DNA of 64,000 nucleotides, taken from the sequence record MT446423.1; one strand, 5' to 3'. Below the pieces are notes generated by a model. It saw only the letters and a list, made by a program, of their open reading frames with translations. It was not told where the DNA came from and searched no databases. This document shows positions 5,617-42,627 of this stretch, piece by piece. The DNA comes from Escherichia virus TH58. Position 1 is the stretch's first letter, and each line of letters starts with the position of its first letter. A program made the translations under genes and the position numbers.

Positions 5617-5695
5617 GAATTATGTGTTATTATTAATTCATACCCTCTATTACCAAAGGTGCTCTAAAGTGCCTTTCATAATAGAAAGTTATTTA

Positions 5696-5769
5696 GGCCC
5701 TGTAGCTCAATGGTTAGCAGCAGTCCCCTCATAAGGGAAAGGTTACCAGTTCGAATCTGGTCTGGGCCA
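5696..5769 (+). tRNA. tRNA with CAU anticodon (Met or Ile-type)
   Basis: Hand-folded cloverleaf: acceptor GGCCCTG/CTGGGCC (one T-T mismatch), T-arm ACCAG-TTCGAATC-TGGT, anticodon loop CTCATAA; no encoded CCA. Confidence 0.65.
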
Positions 5770-5775
5770 TATATT

Positions 5776-5852
<77 letters not shown>

Positions 5853-5870
5853 ACTTCAAATGAGGAAAAT

Positions 5871-6215
5871 ATGAAAGGCAATATTTATTTGGTAGTTCAT
5901 GATTTAACGTTTTATTTTAACGAACAGGATACAGTTATTTCCGACCGGTTGATTAATTCGTTATATCAACACGCTGATTACGTTTATTTTAAAAATGAAT
6001 TCGGACATTGGAAGTTTCTTAAAAACCGTTCCGGGTTAACTAGTTTTGAATACTTTGACCGTAAAGACCTTTTAAACGAAATCCCATTGCAACATCGGTT
6101 CCAGAAACGCGAATCATTATATTATTGCCGTCATATACCAAACGCAGAATGTGCTTATGAAGCGATTAATCTATGGCGTCGGCGTCGAGAACAAATTGAT
6201 GATATGCCAAAATAA
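5871..6215 (+). CDS. Hypothetical protein
   Basis: ATG 5871 with GAGGA RBS; the upstream part of track ORF 5823..6215 overlaps tRNA-Arg and is discounted. Confidence 0.5.
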   Translation: MKGNIYLVVHDLTFYFNEQDTVISDRLINSLYQHADYVYFKNEFGHWKFLKNRSGLTSFEYFDRKDLLNEIPLQHRFQKRESLYYCRHIPNAECAYEAINLWRRRREQIDDMPK

Positions 6216-6522
6216 GAAACCGGGTCGCTACCGGTAAGTCGTCGGACTGATGTTCCCTGGAGTATAGTTCCTCCCACAGTTTTACTGTGTTCTGGTTCTT
6301 TACTATCACAGCTGAAACGGCGCACAGAATTATCGATTCGAGGAAATATCTTTGCCGTAAGCCGAGTAGCGTTTTTGACGGAACGTTCGGATATGGTCGA
6401 GATATGGCCTTTTAAAAATATTGAGTAGCGTCAACTGCTTAATAACCGGGTTCGAATCCCGGCGTTTCGTACAAACACTTGCCTTAGCAGGTGGAACCCC
6501 GACAAGGTTGCCGCAAGGCATA
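6216..6522 (+). ncRNA. Candidate structured small RNA region (positional analog of T4 tRNA-associated stable RNAs)
   Basis: About 300 nt with no credible + strand ORF, GC-richer than surroundings, tRNA-like T-arm CCGGG-TTCGAAT-CCCGG at 6446-6462, ends at a strong terminator. Confidence 0.3.
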
Positions 6523-6554
6523 GCCCCTTCCGAAAGGTTGGGGCTTTTTTTTTT
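6523..6554 (+). terminator. Rho-independent terminator
   Basis: GCCCCTTCCGAAAGGTTGGGGC hairpin followed by T10. Confidence 0.8.
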
Positions 6555-6596
6555 GGCATAATAAATAGATAAGTTAATTAACTTAGGAAAAGCAAC

Positions 6597-7061
6597 ATGA
6601 AATCATACGCTGAATTTTTGACTGAACAATCTAGTTCAGATGTAAAAGCCGCTGCGATTGCAGCAATTCGAGCAGGTAAATATTCTTACAAAGACGCCTC
6701 TGATGAAGAACGTTTCCGTTTTATTAGAGATTTTAAAGCCGAAGGTTTTACTAATGCTAATACTGTTAGCCGAGTTTTTAAAAGCCTAGCTGCATCAGGT
6801 GAATTGTTCCAGAAAGCTACAGGTAAAGCACCTGCGCCAAAAGCGGACCCTAAAGCCGCTCAAGAAAAAAATATCGCCAAAGGAATTATTTCTAAGTATG
6901 AAGCAATTCTTAAAGAGCTTTTAGTAATCAAATCAGAAGGCCAGAAACTGGCACGAGCACATAGCTTCAAAGATAATCCTCACGCTCATAGCCTTGAGTA
7001 TGTTGAAGATATCCAAAAACTTATTAAAGACCGTATCTGGTCTGCTAAACAAATTAAATAA
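6597..7061 (+). CDS. Internal-protein-like ORF with capsid targeting sequence
   Basis: Starts MKSYAEFLTE (CTS-like); 154 aa; terminator directly downstream. Confidence 0.5.
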   Translation: MKSYAEFLTEQSSSDVKAAAIAAIRAGKYSYKDASDEERFRFIRDFKAEGFTNANTVSRVFKSLAASGELFQKATGKAPAPKADPKAAQEKNIAKGIISKYEAILKELLVIKSEGQKLARAHSFKDNPHAHSLEYVEDIQKLIKDRIWSAKQIK

Positions 7062-7067
7062 TAGAAT

Positions 7068-7095
7068 GCCCCTTCCTTACGGTTGGGGCTTTTTG
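7068..7095 (+). terminator. Rho-independent terminator
   Basis: GCCCCTTCCTTACGGTTGGGGC hairpin plus T5. Confidence 0.7.
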
Positions 7096-7184
7096 GTATC
7101 TAGGGCATAAAAATATTTCATAAAGATGTTTACTTCTTCTAAGGACATGATACTATAGACTTATCAACCACATAGGAAAATGTT

Positions 7185-7688
7185 ATGAGTCTTTATACTG
7201 AACTGAATAAAAAATCTGAAGAATCTGCTGAAACTATTTTTAAAAACGTGCAAAAACGTATTTTAGAAAAGATGTATAACGCTGCATCTAAAGGTGAAAA
7301 ATCTTGCCGGTTCCCGATGAGGTGTTCCTCCGATTTATGCGCAAATACTATTGAATGGCTGGAAAGTGAAGGTCTTACGGTAGAGAAAAACCCGGCGACT
7401 TCTATTGACAGCGAATCATATATTAGTATTTCTTGGGATAAATCAAGGGTAGAAGAGAAAGATGGTGATTGGGTTGTAGATGTTAAAACTTCTGATGGTG
7501 GACGTTCTGTTGAAGTTTCAGCTGTAGTTAAAGGTACCCACGAACAAAGGACTTGGGGTTGGGGTGGTGAAGAAAAAGAAATTGTTCTTAGTGTGATTGC
7601 CAGGTCAACTAGTAATAAAATTGCACAAAGCATCATTGACGCTGCAATTGCTGAAGCAGAAAAAATTTGCAAAATTAAAAATAAATGA
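7185..7688 (+). CDS. Hypothetical protein
   Basis: 167 aa, RBS AGGAAAA; bracketed by a terminator upstream and a promoter downstream. Confidence 0.55.
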   Translation: MSLYTELNKKSEESAETIFKNVQKRILEKMYNAASKGEKSCRFPMRCSSDLCANTIEWLESEGLTVEKNPATSIDSESYISISWDKSRVEEKDGDWVVDVKTSDGGRSVEVSAVVKGTHEQRTWGWGGEEKEIVLSVIARSTSNKIAQSIIDAAIAEAEKICKIKNK

Positions 7689-7745
7689 TGTACAAACGCC
7701 AAGGATGGTGATATGATTACTCCACCAACAAATGAGGAAAACAAA

Positions 7746-7994
7746 ATGTTTAAGTCTGATATCGAACAAGCTAAAGAAATCGCCTCAGAATACTTTGGTT
7801 CATTCTTACGTCTTTTTGGAGAAATTCCTGAATTTAATTCTGCATCAGAATCTGCGGAAGCTTTAAAGGCCATTGAAAATATTATTTTGGAAGACCTTAA
7901 ATCTTTCGACGGTTCTAATCTTTCGGCACTTCCTCGTATAATCGATATCCATGTTCTGGATAAAATGGAAGAGATTATTAATTCGTACAAATAA
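7746..7994 (+). CDS. Hypothetical acidic protein
   Basis: ATG 7746 with GAGGAAA RBS; the track start at 7713 lies inside the promoter-like cassette. Confidence 0.45.
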   Translation: MFKSDIEQAKEIASEYFGSFLRLFGEIPEFNSASESAEALKAIENIILEDLKSFDGSNLSALPRIIDIHVLDKMEEIINSYK

Positions 7995-8024
7995 GTGTAC
8001 AAACTCTTGAGAGCAGAGTATAAT
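7995..8024 (+). promoter_or_regulatory. Early promoter inside hairpin GAGAGC...GCTCTC (cassette repeated at 40344)
   Basis: ACAAACTCTTGAGAGCAGAGTATAATGCTCTC; near-identical copy at 40344-40380. Confidence 0.5.
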
Positions 8025-8066
8025 GCTCTCGTTGGATAATAAAACCACCAATTGAAAGGTAATAAT

Positions 8067-8660
8067 ATGAACACACTAAAGAAACTTGTTGAATTCATCC
8101 GCACTAAACTGGGTACTGCTATGGCTAAAAATCTGACTGTCGAAGAACAGTATAACGCAGCCGCAGATAAGTTGATTACCCAAATCAAAGAACTAAAAAC
8201 GGCTTCTGTTAAATCTATTAATGAAGAAAAACGTATTCGCGAACTTGCTAATGAAAAGAACAAGCAAGCTGCTTCTAAGGAACGTGAAATTCGTAAGCTC
8301 CTGGCTGAAGGACAAGATGTTACCATGCATGCTAAGCTTGGTCTTCTGTATCGTCGAACTGCCGAACAACTTAATACAAAAGCTGCCGGGTATGCCGCTA
8401 TGCGAATTGAAATTGCTCGTAAGGTGGTTGAACTTGATGATGCTCGTCAGAATCTGGCAATCAAACTCGAATACATTCGTGAAACTCGAGCAGCTAATGC
8501 CCTTGGTATCTCTACGGCTGATGATGTAATTGAAATCGCTGCACTGACTAAGGTTGATATCGAAGACACTCTGACTCGTGTTGAAACGTTCAATGGCACT
8601 CCAACCGGTGTCGAAACCACTTCTGCTGATGTACAAGAATATATTAACTCTTTGAAATAA
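8067..8660 (+). CDS. Coiled-coil protein, function unknown
   Basis: ATG 8067 after AAAGG; heptad-rich, K/E-rich sequence; 197 aa. Confidence 0.5.
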
Positions 8661-8709
8661 AATAATACGGAGGACTCCGGTCCTCCTTTTGGATAATAAA
8701 GGAGTTAAC

Positions 8710-9306
8710 ATGCGAAACCAAAATAATGATATTGACTCGATGTTCGAAGAGTTCCGAAATAAGGTAAATCCACCTACGTCTTTAGTTGATTCATTACGAT
8801 ATATTGCAACTGGACGTAAATGGTACTGGTCGTCTTCTTATGAGACAACTGAATATGCAAATAACCGAAAATCTTTATTAGCCCCAGGTATTATGATTCA
8901 TGATATCGGAGCTATTGCTAAACTAGTTGCAGACCATGATATTAGATTCACTGATTTCGTTGCTCCTACGTGGTCTGTTTGTTGTTTAAACACTGAATGG
9001 GACTATATCAGTGAACGCTCTGAAGATTATTATGGTTTTAGAGATAAGCTCTTAAGGTCTAACATGTTTTATATCGATACTGAAGTCCTAGTCGATAATA
9101 AAAAATATTACTTTACGTTAATCGTCGATTCTGAAACTATGTATGAAGGCAAGCCTTTGCTTAAAAGAGTTGATGCTTTAAGTGCTATTGATGCGCTTTA
9201 TGAAACTATGGTTGTTAGTCCTAATTTCACTAACAATTTAATCCTTGAGCAATTTATTATGGAATGTAGAGAATATGTCAAAGCCAACCCTATACATGCC
9301 AAGTAA
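8710..9306 (+). CDS. Hypothetical protein with C-terminal QFIMECR motif
   Basis: ATG 8710 after AAGGAG; C-terminal region shares the motif of the junction-cassette family. Confidence 0.55.
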   Translation: MRNQNNDIDSMFEEFRNKVNPPTSLVDSLRYIATGRKWYWSSSYETTEYANNRKSLLAPGIMIHDIGAIAKLVADHDIRFTDFVAPTWSVCCLNTEWDYISERSEDYYGFRDKLLRSNMFYIDTEVLVDNKKYYFTLIVDSETMYEGKPLLKRVDALSAIDALYETMVVSPNFTNNLILEQFIMECREYVKANPIHAK

Positions 9307-9670
9307 GCCCTGGGCATACGAATACAAACGTAAATTAATTCCTAATGAAGTGTTGTTTGGTCCTATTTTAGCTTTAGCATTTTTAATCTTTATGATTATA
9401 GGAGCTATTTTAGATTCCAATAAAGTTATATCGTCTGATGCAGTGTTTTTACTTATTATAGTCGGGTCGTTTATTGTACCATTTTTATTAATGCCTATTA
9501 ACTGGGTGGGATATTGGTACCAAGGACGTCATCATAGAGCCCGATTAAGAGAATGGAAAGTTCAGTGCGCAAAAGCCCAAGCTCAGTATGACGAAGCTGT
9601 TAAAAAGTATGAATATGAAGAAGCTATGGAATTCGTTAAGGAAATAAGATGCAAAAGCCTCAACTCTTAA
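9275..9670 (+). CDS. Small membrane protein with C-terminal EFVKEIRCK motif
   Basis: Two predicted TM helices; start assignment uncertain (ATG 9275 chosen). Confidence 0.45.
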   Translation: MSKPTLYMPSKPWAYEYKRKLIPNEVLFGPILALAFLIFMIIGAILDSNKVISSDAVFLLIIVGSFIVPFLLMPINWVGYWYQGRHHRARLREWKVQCAKAQAQYDEAVKKYEYEEAMEFVKEIRCKSLNS

Positions 9671-10008
9671 CCGTATGGCCTTCTCTTGGTGAGAACATTC
9701 TAATTTTTATTATGAGTATTGGCATGGGATTTGCCTTTGGACTAGTTGGATTTCTTATTGACGGTGTTGTGTTAGGATTTATAGGGAACACCGGTGGATT
9801 CACAGACCAATGGCAGGACTTACGGTATACCCAAGCCTTTGCATCCATCGCATCCTTTTGTACTGTAGTCTATTTTTACTATGATTTTATAAGCCATAAC
9901 AAGAAAAATAAAAAGGTTTACGCTTCTCAAATGATTAGTTATAATGAACTCCTAGCTAGACGTGAAAATGAAACAATAGAAAACTTTATTAAGGAATGTA
10001 GAAAATGA
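9649..10008 (+). CDS. Small membrane protein ending ENFIKECRK
   Basis: AAGGA RBS; two hydrophobic helices; conserved C-terminal tail. Confidence 0.55.
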   Translation: MQKPQLLTVWPSLGENILIFIMSIGMGFAFGLVGFLIDGVVLGFIGNTGGFTDQWQDLRYTQAFASIASFCTVVYFYYDFISHNKKNKKVYASQMISYNELLARRENETIENFIKECRK

Positions 10009-10310
10009 GTAAGATTATTGAAATTAAAGTACCAGAGTTTAATGATGCCAAATCCGCTTCAGATGCAATTTATAAACTTCTGAATCAAGCTGAACGTATC
10101 GAAGAAGAGGCAACAAAGATCGCAGACCAATACGCCGTATCATTTTCTGTAGGTGATTATGGTAGCGGTCGTACTTATTATCCTAAGGGTGAAATCGTAT
10201 CCCAGTGGATGAAAGATGAAATTGAAAATAATGGTGGCGATGTTAAGCGTGAAGGTAATGGTTACGTTATTACTGAAGGTGCTTGGGTTTCGTCTTCTGC
10301 GTTGTGCTAA
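10005..10310 (+). CDS. Small acidic protein, paralog 1 of 3 (C-terminal GAWVSSSALC)
   Basis: Start overlaps upstream stop; shared C-terminal motif with the next two ORFs. Confidence 0.55.
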   Translation: MSKIIEIKVPEFNDAKSASDAIYKLLNQAERIEEEATKIADQYAVSFSVGDYGSGRTYYPKGEIVSQWMKDEIENNGGDVKREGNGYVITEGAWVSSSALC

Positions 10311-21948: not shown

Positions 21949-22252
21949 ATGGCCTTAAGAGCGATAGCTGTCATGGCGATGCTGGGGTTTTTTTGCAGCA
22001 ACAACTCCTATCGTTGGTACTGCACATATTGACCCATATTTTGATAACTTTATGGAATCAGGGATTAAAAACGTATATACTTTGTTTGAAATTCAAAATG
22101 TCGAGAATTCTGAAAAATTCTATAAGTATATGGCAAAGCATTACAAAAATAGCCCCTGTGATGATGCATTTGAATGTCATGAACAAGGCATAAAAACTGC
22201 CAGACAATTTGCCGAGTTCATGAAAATAAAATTAGAGCCTACATCTATCTAA
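21949..22252 (+). pseudogene. rI: rI lysis-inhibition regulator (antiholin), reading frame broken at a T7 tract
   Basis: AGGAGG-ATG at 21949 encodes signal-anchor MALRAIAVMAMLGFF, then stops at 22030; frame +1 from 21995 continues AATTPIVGTAHIDPYFDNFMESGIK...KIKLEPTSI, which matches T4 RI; frames join if the T run 21988-21994 had 6 rather than 7 T. Confidence 0.6.
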
Positions 22253-27237: not shown

Positions 27238-27525
27238 ATGGATTTTATGCAAAAAATTAAAGCCGCAGTCGAACTGTATGCTCATCGTATGGTTAGTTCT
27301 ACGATGCAATATAGCGAGGATGTTCGCCAGGACTCTTCCTTGAAAGGAAAAACTAAAGCCTTAATTACCTTAGATCGTTTGCAAAAGAATGCCATAGAGA
27401 TGCTCCAGTACGACAAGGATGCATATAAGAAAGAACAGGAAGAGAAACTTAAATCTGAAAAATTACAGAAAATTCCGAAATCGGTTTGGTTCAGTGGAAA
27501 AAATACCGAAAAAAGTTTCTTTTAG
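27238..27525 (+). CDS. Hypothetical basic protein
   Basis: AGAGGA RBS; 95 aa. Confidence 0.5.
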   Translation: MDFMQKIKAAVELYAHRMVSSTMQYSEDVRQDSSLKGKTKALITLDRLQKNAIEMLQYDKDAYKKEQEEKLKSEKLQKIPKSVWFSGKNTEKSFF

Positions 27526-27527
27526 TT

Positions 27528-27556
27528 GTTTACAAGGTCTATGGTTATGTTATTAT
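27528..27556 (+). promoter_or_regulatory. Early promoter GTTTAC / TATTAT with hairpin AGGTCTAT...ATAGACCT
   Basis: GTTTAC 27528-27533, 17-nt spacer, TATTAT 27551-27556. Confidence 0.5.
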
Positions 27557-27583
27557 AGACCTATCAACTACTGGAGGTAAAAC

Positions 27584-28112
27584 ATGAACGCTAAAGATAT
27601 TTTCAACCTGGTAAATTATAACGACGGTAAATTTAAATCTGAAGCACAAAGCAAGTTCTTTAACGACGTTGCTTATGGTAACGAGATTACCGTGGACGGA
27701 GGTCAGATTTTCAAATCTCGCTGGAATTGGATTGCTATCATCGATTCAGTTGGAATTGTGGAAGTCTACAAAAACACTAGCAAAAAAACGTACATTATTC
27801 TGGTCTCGTGAAACTAACGAGCAGTACAAAAAGGATAAAGCATCTCGTTTATCCAAAGTAACCCAGGAAGATATCGAGTTTATCAAGAAAGATATCGAGA
27901 TGTACGAAAATTTAATCGCTGAAGACCAGGCAGTACTCGATAAGTTTGATGAAATTAAAGCTTCTCGTGAAATCCCTGACTTCATGAAAGAAACAGTAAA
28001 CGAACGATACGCTCTCACTTCAGAACGTATTGCAAACTATACAAAACAGAAAGCAGAACGTATTAGTACTCTTCGGAAATTTGAAGAACGTTTAAAGACG
28101 GTTCACGCATAA
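27584..28112 (+). CDS. Hypothetical protein, apparently split by a +1 frame change at an A7 tract
   Basis: ORF 27584..27811 (GGAGG RBS) and ORF continuing to 28112 overlap across the A run 27782-27788; the downstream segment has no credible own start. Confidence 0.4.
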
Positions 28113-42600: not shown

Positions 42601-42627
42601 GAACTCTTCGGAGTTCCTTTTTTTTTG
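42600..42627 (+). terminator. Rho-independent terminator
   Basis: GGAACTCTTCGGAGTTCC hairpin plus T9. Confidence 0.75.

What the first reader, a model, noticed from the sequence alone, without database searches (positions are those of the whole stretch)
27584..28112. Second homopolymer-associated frame break (A7 tract) in a conserved-size ORF
ORF 27584-27811 (with GGAGG RBS) and the ORF running to 28112 overlap across the A run at 27782-27788; the downstream segment lacks a credible start. One additional A would give a single 175-aa protein. Two such breaks within 6 kb hint at either systematic homopolymer error or genuine phase variation or slippage.
Basis: seen in the sequence. Interest (0 to 1): 0.45.

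Follow-up and report, generated by a model that had tools for sequence, protein, structure and literature searches.

The report
Frameshifted nrdC.8 gene in T-even phage
A small, non-essential early gene (nrdC.8) of an RB69-like E. coli phage is cut in two by one extra A in a run of six A's, most likely an ordinary polymerase-slippage mutation of a kind long known in T4-type phages.

Summary
The frame break is real in the sequence. The 75-aa ORF 27584-27811 and the frame ending at 28112 overlap at an A7 run (27782-27788).

The window is a Mosigvirus (RB69/JS09-like T-even phage) and the gene is nrdC.8 (T4 y05D, phrog_2274, PF26901), of unknown function. All 149 close GenBank relatives carry A6 and one uninterrupted gene, and 737 of 745 phage records with a homologue cover at least 80% of it. 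It is therefore a broken gene, not two genes and not conserved recoding.

Systematic homopolymer error is unlikely:
- Only 3 of 53 runs of 6 or more bases differ in length from the nearest relative.
- A separate Logan assembly (SRR11772947) is identical over 12.6 kb, including both breaks.
- The same A6-to-A7 change occurs in two other Mosigvirus haplotypes from other runs.
- nrdC.8 also carries nonsense alleles elsewhere.

The "other break" is T6-to-T7 in rI, the lysis-inhibition gene, and it is also present in phage WFbE185.

Best reading: a genuine, reversible replication-slippage frameshift at a hotspot. Read-level data are needed to exclude a miscall. Interest is low to moderate.

The parts
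27529..27556 (+). Promoter-like site (TTTACA, 16 nt, TATTAT with an upstream TG) just upstream of nrdC.8. It resembles the T4 early promoter type.
   Evidence: Consensus scan, 10 of 12 matches. The scan found no more sites than in shuffled sequence, so this is only suggestive. T4 nrdC.8 was among the transcripts tested for RegB, which acts on early phage mRNAs (PMC1702504).
27573..27577 (+). Shine-Dalgarno GGAGG, 6 nt before the ATG. It contains the GGAG motif that RegB cleaves moderately in T4 nrdC.8 mRNA.
   Evidence: Sequence; PMC1702504.
27584..27811 (+). Truncated nrdC.8 reading frame: 75 aa, 8.6 kDa. Residues 1-68 are authentic and are followed by 7 out-of-frame residues (TYIILVS) and TGA.
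   Evidence: The exact 75-aa product is also called on Logan contig SRR11772947_294 and on an NCBI contig of 170,748 bp.
27780..27780 (+). G in place of the A seen in every related sequence read (AAC to AGC, N66S). It lies two bases before the A run, at a residue invariant in 15 diverse homologues.
   Evidence: No phage record reaches 99% identity over the 101-nt query spanning the site. The intact S66 protein is absent from the 15-billion-protein collection.
27782..27788 (+). A7 homopolymer, the site of the +1 insertion. Relatives have A6, encoding Lys67-Lys68.
27789..28112 (+). The remaining 107 codons of nrdC.8, now in the +1 frame, plus the stop codon. They encode the last beta-strand (with invariant W73 S74 R75) and the whole helical C-terminal half. 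There is no decay relative to intact relatives.
21949..22252 (+). rI (lysis-inhibition regulator, antiholin), broken by T6-to-T7 at 21988-21994.
   Evidence: The same T7 is present in vB_EcoM_WFbE185, MK373778.1.

Best explanation
The window comes from a Mosigvirus, an RB69/JS09-like T-even phage. The region 27584-28112 is the early gene nrdC.8 (T4 y05D, 20.6 kDa, function unknown).

Its ancestral A6 tract (Lys67-Lys68) gained one A, most likely by strand slippage of the phage DNA polymerase during replication. This is the Streisinger mechanism, the classical frameshift hotspot type of T4 rII. A 2025 preprint calls such tracts phage 'contingency loci'.

Translation from the normal start and Shine-Dalgarno sequence now stops after 75 codons. 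The product lacks the fourth beta-strand and the C-terminal helical hairpin, so it is most probably a null allele. Because neighbouring genes appear to have their own promoters, polar effects are not expected.

The gene is dispensable, so the allele persists. It can revert at high frequency by losing one A. At most a small fraction of full-length protein could arise from RNA-polymerase or tRNA-Lys slippage on the A7 run.

Shown: the break, its derived state, its recurrence, and the intact state of relatives.
Inferred: that it is present in the phage DNA rather than a miscall, that the mechanism is replication slippage, and that function is lost.
For: - A7 against A6: the one-base-shorter tract is seen in all 149 close GenBank relatives and reads A6 in every sequence inspected. 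The relatives carry a single 528-bp CDS annotated nrdC.8 / y05D.
- Only A6 or A9 restores the frame.
- The restored protein matches phrog_2274 end to end, E = 4e-105. Both fragments carry PF26901.
- Protein conservation (YKNTNKKRTLxWSR) runs across the break in three genera.
- The downstream part shows no decay, so the event is recent.
- It is not systematic error. Only 3 of 53 runs of 6 or more bases differ in length from SQ17, and only nrdC.8 and rI are broken in 64 kb.
- Logan contig SRR11772947_294 is 100% identical to the window over 12,607 bp, including A7 and T7.
- The change recurs. The same A6-to-A7 change is found in Logan SRR21291469 (AAC-A7). That phage is 96.3% identical to the window over 6.7 kb, and no other gene on the retrieved stretch looks broken. 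It is also found in Logan ERR2135729 (AAT-A7), which has 11 other substitutions in the gene.
- The gene is dispensable. Independent nonsense alleles exist (E147* in phage ZQ3; E20* in SRR10084837). A different +1 frameshift occurs in a Tequatrovirus-type contig.
- Literature: runs of 6 or more identical bases in T2, T4 and T6 show +/-1 variants at about 3e-4 per tract. An engineered extra A in the A6 tract of T4 rIIA (A6 to A7) reverts about 10,000 times more often than a point mutation (bioRxiv 10.1101/2025.10.21.683753).
Against: - No reads could be inspected, and the platforms of SRR11772947, SRR21291469 and ERR2135729 are unknown. A recurrent homopolymer miscall at this site is therefore not excluded.
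- The Logan contig and the window probably derive from the same sample, so they may not be independent.
- None of the 149 curated GenBank Mosigvirus genomes has A7. All three A7 alleles were found among uncurated assemblies, although the window's allele is also on an NCBI contig.
- A unique substitution two bases from the run (27780 G), at an invariant residue, is unexpected for a simple slippage event.
- Loss of function rests on a medium-confidence model (mean pLDDT 69).
Confidence: 0.65

Rival explanations
1. Sequencing or consensus error: the phage DNA really has A6 (and T6 in rI), and the extra base is a homopolymer overcall that entered the assembly.
For: - Both breaks are +1 in a run of six A:T pairs, and both read GC-A7-C on one strand.
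- No curated GenBank relative has A7.
- All A7 alleles come from raw-read assemblies.
- A unique base change sits next to the run.
Against: - 43 of 53 runs of 6 or more bases agree in length with the nearest relative. No essential gene in the 64 kb (DNA polymerase, helicase, clamp and others) is broken.
- A k-mer assembly of SRR11772947 gives the identical sequence over 12.6 kb.
- On the SRR21291469 contig, no other called gene on the retrieved stretch looks broken.
- nrdC.8 is also inactivated by base substitutions in other phages, which cannot be homopolymer errors.
- The rI T7 is present in an independently deposited genome.
Confidence: 0.2
2. Selected off-switch (adaptive contingency locus): the A6 tract of nrdC.8 is maintained because reversible loss of NrdC.8 helps the phage in some hosts, for example to escape a defence that senses it. 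The A7 state was enriched by selection. The mutational mechanism is the same as in the best explanation, with an added adaptive role.
For: - The OFF allele is seen in three haplotypes, plus at least three other disruptive alleles of the same small gene.
- The A6 tract is conserved in Mosigvirus and Dhakavirus.
- A preprint shows such a role for agt and rIIA tracts in T2 and T4.
- The companion break in rI gives a known selectable phenotype, rapid lysis.
Against: - AAAAAA simply encodes a Lys-Lys pair. Position 67 is invariant; position 68 is Asn in T6.
- T6 has AAT AAA AAT, so the tract itself is not conserved across the family.
- A7 is on 3 contigs, while the matching intact allele alone is on 106. 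That is roughly 1%, which fits neutral hotspot mutation in a dispensable gene.
- No phenotype or defence link is known for nrdC.8.
- No control gene was examined.
Confidence: 0.1
3. Programmed recoding: the A7 run directs +1 or -2 ribosomal frameshifting, or transcriptional slippage, so that both a 75-aa and a ~175-aa protein are made by design.
For: - tRNA-Lys can re-pair perfectly after a +1 or -2 shift on A7.
- A hairpin starts 9 nt downstream (-17.1 kcal/mol, z = -2.55).
- A/T runs are known sites of RNA-polymerase slippage (own knowledge).
Against: - The two-frame arrangement is absent from all 149 close relatives, and 737 of 745 phage records with a homologue cover at least 80% of the protein.
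- The required shift is +1 or -2, not the -1 that A-rich heptamers promote. The -1 frame gives only 92 aa.
- The A-site codon is ACG, with no stop codon there to pause the ribosome.
- The hairpin sequence is the same in relatives where the gene is in frame.
- A7 is shorter than tracts that give efficient slippage (own knowledge).
Confidence: 0.03
4. Two genuine separate genes: a 75-aa protein and an independently initiated C-terminal protein.
For: A gene caller predicted a 118-aa ORF from GTG 27756 on the Logan contig.
Against: - That GTG is out of frame in all intact relatives.
- No Shine-Dalgarno sequence precedes it or the two downstream ATGs.
- Relatives encode one protein, conserved across the junction.
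Confidence: 0.02

Closest known systems
Streisinger slipped-strand frameshift hotspots in T4 (A runs in rII and the lysozyme gene e)
   Same: A +1 change in a run of six A:T pairs in a T-even phage gene. It produces a truncated product and is expected to revert readily. The same event recurs independently at the same tract.
   Different: It occurs in a Mosigvirus and in nrdC.8, a gene with no known phenotype. The mutation rate was not measured here. An adjacent base substitution accompanies it in the window.
Phage 'contingency loci' (runs of 6 or more identical bases in T2, T4 and T6; Gomez, Barrick and Waters, bioRxiv 10.1101/2025.10.21.683753)
   Same: A homopolymer of at least 6 bases inside an ORF of unknown or accessory function. 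A +/-1 state is found among related phages. The companion break lies in a lysis-inhibition gene, as with the rIIA example in the preprint.
   Different: That work measured within-population variants and reversion under a defined trade-off (TgvAB against McrBC, and RexAB). Here only fixed consensus states in assemblies are seen, with no phenotype and no trade-off. nrdC.8 is not named in the text that could be read, and no supplements are held.
T4 NrdC.8 / Y05D protein family (PF26901, phrog_2274)
   Same: Same gene, same synteny (nrdC.10, nrdC.9, nrdC.8, nrdC.6), and a full-length profile match once A6 is restored.
   Different: The window's copy is interrupted and is predicted to make only residues 1-68 plus 7 foreign residues.
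Programmed frameshifts of phage tail-chaperone genes (G/GT type), and dnaX
   Same: Two overlapping frames meet at a slippery A-rich run.
   Different: In those systems the arrangement and the slippery heptamer are conserved among relatives, and the shift is usually -1. Here the arrangement is absent from relatives and the shift would have to be +1 or -2.

Membership tests
NrdC.8 / Y05D (PF26901, phrog_2274) | Full-length sequence match to the family profile | tested here: met
   After restoring A6, the protein matches phrog_2274 over 1-175 of 175, E = 4e-105. PF26901 is recorded for both fragments. The protein is 99% identical to JS09 NrdC.8. The local Pfam copy lacks PF26901.
NrdC.8 / Y05D (PF26901, phrog_2274) | Conserved position between nrdC.9 and nrdC.6 in the nrdC-mobD block of T-even phages | tested here: met
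   Annotated neighbours in S143_2, JS09, RB69 and SQ17, and the same gene order in the window.
NrdC.8 / Y05D (PF26901, phrog_2274) | One uninterrupted ORF of 174-175 codons | tested here: not met
   The window has 75 codons followed by a stop. The remaining 107 codons are in the +1 frame. It is a frameshifted allele of the family gene.
Phage contingency locus (hypermutable repeat of one base) | Homopolymer of at least 6 bases inside an ORF | tested here: met
   A6 in relatives, A7 here, at codons 67-68.
Phage contingency locus (hypermutable repeat of one base) | Length variation of +/-1 at the tract among otherwise near-identical genomes, arising more than once | tested here: met
   Three A7 alleles on different haplotypes (AGC-, AAC- and AAT-A7; 2 to 11 other differences in the gene), against the matching A6 allele on 106 contigs.
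Phage contingency locus (hypermutable repeat of one base) | Measured high and reversible mutation rate, or mixed tract lengths within one population | not testable with these tools
   No access to reads. The run accessions do not appear in any searchable paper.
Phage contingency locus (hypermutable repeat of one base) | Fitness trade-off between the ON and OFF states | not tested
   No known phenotype of nrdC.8. The fold search gave no functional lead.
Programmed ribosomal frameshift or transcriptional slippage site | Two-frame arrangement conserved in relatives | tested here: not met
   0 of 149 close relatives have it. Of 745 phage records with a homologue, 737 cover at least 80% of the protein, and all sampled rows are a single piece.
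Programmed ribosomal frameshift or transcriptional slippage site | Slippery motif in the correct register for the shift required | tested here: not met
   The shift required is +1 or -2. The -1 frame terminates at 92 aa. The zero-frame codons are AGC AAA AAA ACG, which is not an X XXY YYZ heptamer, and no stop codon occupies the A site.
Programmed ribosomal frameshift or transcriptional slippage site | Downstream stimulatory RNA structure | tested here: inconclusive
   A hairpin starts 9 nt after the run, -17.1 kcal/mol, z = -2.55. The same sequence is present in relatives where the gene is in frame.
Homopolymer sequencing artefact | Many homopolymer length discrepancies and broken genes across the assembly | tested here: not met
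   Only 3 of 53 runs differ in length, one of them in a terminator tail. Only two genes are broken in 64 kb.
Homopolymer sequencing artefact | Read-level disagreement or strand bias at the site | not testable with these tools
   Reads are not available. Only agreement between two assemblies could be shown.

The most novel reading that the evidence does not exclude
The A6 tract of nrdC.8, together with the T6 tract of rI, is a true contingency locus of Mosigvirus phages. The OFF (A7) state recurs in at least three lineages because loss of NrdC.8 is positively selected in some hosts, for instance because NrdC.8 triggers or is targeted by a bacterial defence. The tract would let the phage switch the gene back on at high frequency.
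Probability: 0.1. Interest if true: 0.55.

Novelty: new member of a known kind. Interest (0 to 1): 0.27.

Why it matters
For annotation, 27584-28112 should be recorded as one frameshifted nrdC.8 gene (a pseudogene or OFF allele). It should not be annotated as two hypothetical proteins or as a recoding site.

For biology, it adds natural examples to a recently proposed idea: that short homopolymers in T-even phage accessory genes toggle on and off. Here the same tract is expanded in three different Mosigvirus backgrounds, and a second tract is expanded in rI in two genomes.

It also shows that nrdC.8 is dispensable. The repeated inactivation (three frameshifts at one tract, another frameshift and two nonsense alleles) could be followed up to find what NrdC.8 does. 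The rI break predicts a rapid-lysis phage, which matters if the phage is used practically.

Tried and rejected
- Exact-pattern scans for the A7 context found nothing in IMG/VR. In JGI metagenomes and GTDB genomes they gave only unrelated chance matches. The one related IMG/VR contig has A6.
- E. coli complete genomes hold no copy of the gene.
- Looking up the window's 331-aa NrdC.6 and its 118-aa ORF by exact sequence returned 'not on record', although the Logan contig encodes them. The index is evidently incomplete.
- Searching papers for the three run accessions gave nothing, so the sequencing platforms remain unknown.
- The local Pfam copy does not contain PF26901 and gave only a sub-threshold DHR-2 match, which I disregard.
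A homologue alignment gave a medium-confidence model: mean pLDDT 69, a poorly predicted N-terminus, four beta-strands and then a confident helical hairpin. The Foldseek search against PDB found nothing significant, best E = 0.05, only generic coiled coils. Function remains unknown.
- The supplements of the contingency-locus preprint are not held, so I could not check whether T4 nrdC.8 or rI tracts are listed there.
- Rejected: a conserved programmed frameshift, two separate genes, and systematic homopolymer error. Reasons are given under the rival explanations.

Full report
**1. What is in the sequence**

- ORF 27584-27811 (75 aa) starts at an ATG six bases after GGAGG (27573-27577) and ends at TGA.
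- The run at 27782-27788 is exactly seven A's, flanked by C on both sides.
- A second frame is open from 27669 to the TAA at 28110-28112 and overlaps the first ORF across the run.
- This second frame is +1 relative to the first. Rebuilding the region with different tract lengths gives 175 aa for A6, 75 aa for A7, 92 aa for A8 and 176 aa for A9.
- After the run, the second frame has only two in-frame start codons, ATG 27900 and ATG 27984. Neither follows a recognisable Shine-Dalgarno sequence.

**2. What the gene is**

The window is a T-even phage of the genus Mosigvirus (RB69, JS09, HX01, ST0 and relatives). Its nearest GenBank records are about 96-97% identical over 25 kb.

In those records the matching stretch is a single 528-bp CDS. 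It is annotated nrdC.8, or 'uncharacterized 20.7 kDa protein in nrdC-mobD intergenic region' (T4 y05D). It lies between nrdC.9 and nrdC.6.

The restored protein matches phrog_2274 end to end (1-175 of 175, E = 4e-105, function unknown). The precomputed Pfam family for both fragments is PF26901, Phage_T4_Y05D. The family is restricted to T-even-like phages, and nearly all members are 174-175 aa.

Little is published on it. In T4, its GGAG Shine-Dalgarno sequence is moderately cleaved by RegB (PMC1702504). Its mRNA is lower in cells expressing DRT1 (PMC13275509).

An AlphaFold model built from 15 homologues has medium confidence (mean pLDDT 69). It shows a poorly defined N-terminus, four beta-strands (41-44, 49-54, 57-64, 69-74) and a confident helical hairpin (94-126, 132-174). 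It has no significant match in the PDB.

**3. Is the split ancestral or derived?**

It is derived.

- A 101-nt query across the run found 149 records. Every listed match is one base shorter than the query and none reaches 99% identity.
- Alignments show AAC-AAAAAA-CGT in S143_2, JQD51, JS09 and RB69, A6 also in the Dhakavirus JS10, and AAT AAA AAT in T6.
- By tblastn, 737 of 745 phage records with a homologue cover at least 80% of the protein. All 60 sampled rows are a single piece.
- The motif YKNTNKKRTLxWSR is conserved straight across the break, and W73, S74 and R75 are invariant.

A conserved programmed frameshift is excluded.

The downstream 107 codons are identical in protein to those of JS09, so the event is recent.

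**4. Real mutation or miscall?**

I compared the whole window with phage SQ17.

- Of 53 aligned homopolymers of 6 or more bases, 43 have the same length, 7 are interrupted by substitutions, and 3 differ in length.
- The three are T7 at 21988-21994, A7 at 27782-27788, and T9 against T7 at 42618-42626.
- The third is the T tail of an intergenic hairpin terminator.
- A tblastn screen with all SQ17 ORFs found only nrdC.8 and rI broken in the 64 kb. DNA polymerase, helicase, the clamp and clamp loader, UvsX, gp46/47, NrdD/G and the rest are intact.

This does not look like a platform with systematic homopolymer error.

The exact 75-aa product is on record on Logan contig SRR11772947_294. That contig is 100% identical to the window over 12,607 bp, including both A7 and T7. 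The same protein is also recorded on an NCBI contig of 170,748 bp, presumably the source of the window. These may share one read set, so they are not independent proof.

**5. Recurrence**

This is the most informative result. The protein search turned up a 118-aa cluster that represents the C-terminal fragment. Following it gave two more contigs with the same 75-aa plus 118/120-aa split.

| Source | Context at the tract | Relation to the window |
|---|---|---|
| Window / SRR11772947 | AGC-A7 | reference |
| Logan SRR21291469_3397 | AAC-A7 | 96.3% identical over 6.7 kb; no other called gene on the retrieved stretch looks broken |
| Logan ERR2135729_190 | AAT-A7 | 11 other substitutions in the gene, as far from the window as RB69 is from JS09 |

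The corresponding intact allele (N66, A6) is on 106 contigs. So A6-to-A7 has arisen, or been called, at least twice and probably three times.

nrdC.8 is also disrupted in other ways:

- E147* in phage ZQ3
- E20* in SRR10084837
- a +1 insertion outside any homopolymer run in a T4-type contig
- an in-frame 11-aa deletion

Base-substitution nonsense alleles cannot be homopolymer artefacts. They show the gene is dispensable, which makes a genuine frameshift plausible.

**6. The other break**

T6-to-T7 at 21988-21994 truncates rI, the lysis-inhibition regulator (antiholin), after 15 authentic residues. Deleting one T restores a 100-aa protein collinear with SQ17 rI.

The same T7 is present in the independently deposited genome vB_EcoM_WFbE185. 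There the gene is likewise annotated only as a 66-aa hypothetical protein. By own knowledge, rI mutants are the classical rapid-lysis (r) mutants and are easily enriched in culture.

**7. Mechanism and comparison with what is known**

The simplest mechanism is slipped-strand mispairing during replication at a short A:T run. This is the Streisinger model, which explains the T4 rII hotspots (own knowledge).

A 2025 preprint reports that runs of 6 or more identical bases in T2, T4 and T6 carry +/-1 variants at about 3e-4 per tract. It also reports that an engineered extra A in the A6 tract of T4 rIIA (A6 to A7) reverts about 10,000 times more often than a point mutant, and it calls such tracts phage contingency loci (10.1101/2025.10.21.683753).

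The window's two breaks are natural instances of that kind, in a different genus and in genes not discussed in the readable text.

Whether the tract has an adaptive role is open. AAAAAA simply encodes Lys-Lys, the tract is not conserved in T6, and the OFF allele is on roughly 1% of contigs. All of this is compatible with neutral hotspot mutation.

Low-level rescue by RNA-polymerase slippage, or by +1/-2 slippage of tRNA-Lys, is conceivable on A7. There is no conserved signal for it. The hairpin 9 nt downstream (z = -2.55) is present unchanged in relatives where the gene is in frame.

**8. Open point**

The G at 27780 (AAC to AGC, N66S) lies two bases from the run, at a residue invariant in the family. 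It is unique: no phage record reaches 99% identity over the 101-nt query spanning it, and the intact S66 protein is absent from the protein collection.

It may be a neutral change that followed inactivation, part of a complex mutation, or a local error. I could not decide between these.

**9. Verdict**

- The feature is a frameshifted allele of a known, dispensable T-even gene at a homopolymer hotspot.
- It is most likely genuine (0.65), possibly a miscall (0.2).
- It is not programmed recoding and not two genes.
- Novelty: a new member of a known kind. Interest is low to moderate.

Noticed in passing
window 21949-22252 (T7 at 21988-21994): rI (lysis-inhibition regulator, antiholin) is frameshifted by T6-to-T7. 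Removing one T restores a 100-aa protein collinear with SQ17 rI. The same T7 is in GenBank phage vB_EcoM_WFbE185 (MK373778.1), where rI is annotated only as a 66-aa hypothetical protein. This predicts a rapid-lysis phenotype.
   Followed up: partly
window 27780-27789 (+) and 21987-21996 (-): Both frame-breaking runs read GC-A7-C on one strand, so they share the same 10-mer, GCAAAAAAAC. Three C-A6-C sites (10497, 37801, 40132) did not expand. This may be coincidence.
   Followed up: no
window 27780: A unique A-to-G change (N66S) at a family-invariant residue, two bases before the A run. The intact S66 allele is not found anywhere in the protein collection.
   Followed up: partly
window 42601-42626: Intrinsic-terminator hairpin GGAACTC-TTCG-GAGTTCC followed by T9. 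SQ17 has T7 here. This is a harmless intergenic tract-length difference.
   Followed up: yes
L020 (MW630116.1, phage vB_EcoM-ZQ3), L029 (Logan SRR10084837), L030 (Logan ERR2245455): Other inactivated nrdC.8 alleles: E147* (GAA to TAA), E20* (GAA to TAA), and a +1 A insertion in GGTATT in a Tequatrovirus-type contig. P0027 carries an in-frame 11-aa deletion.
   Followed up: partly
window 27232 / L005 5091-5480: SQ17 has one extra C upstream of nrdC.9, and there the gene is annotated as 129 aa. In the window and in other relatives it is 95 aa (27238-27525). The odd one out is SQ17, not the window.
   Followed up: partly
window 5663-10268: About 4.6 kb with no alignment to SQ17. It begins with tRNA-Met (5696-5769) and tRNA-Arg (5776-5852). 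The remaining content was not examined.
   Followed up: no
GenBank annotations of relatives: Many records label nrdC.8 and its neighbours 'thioredoxin', and one labels it 'spanin'. This seems to be name propagation from the nrdC locus name. Nothing in the sequence, the profiles or the model supports a thioredoxin fold.
   Followed up: partly
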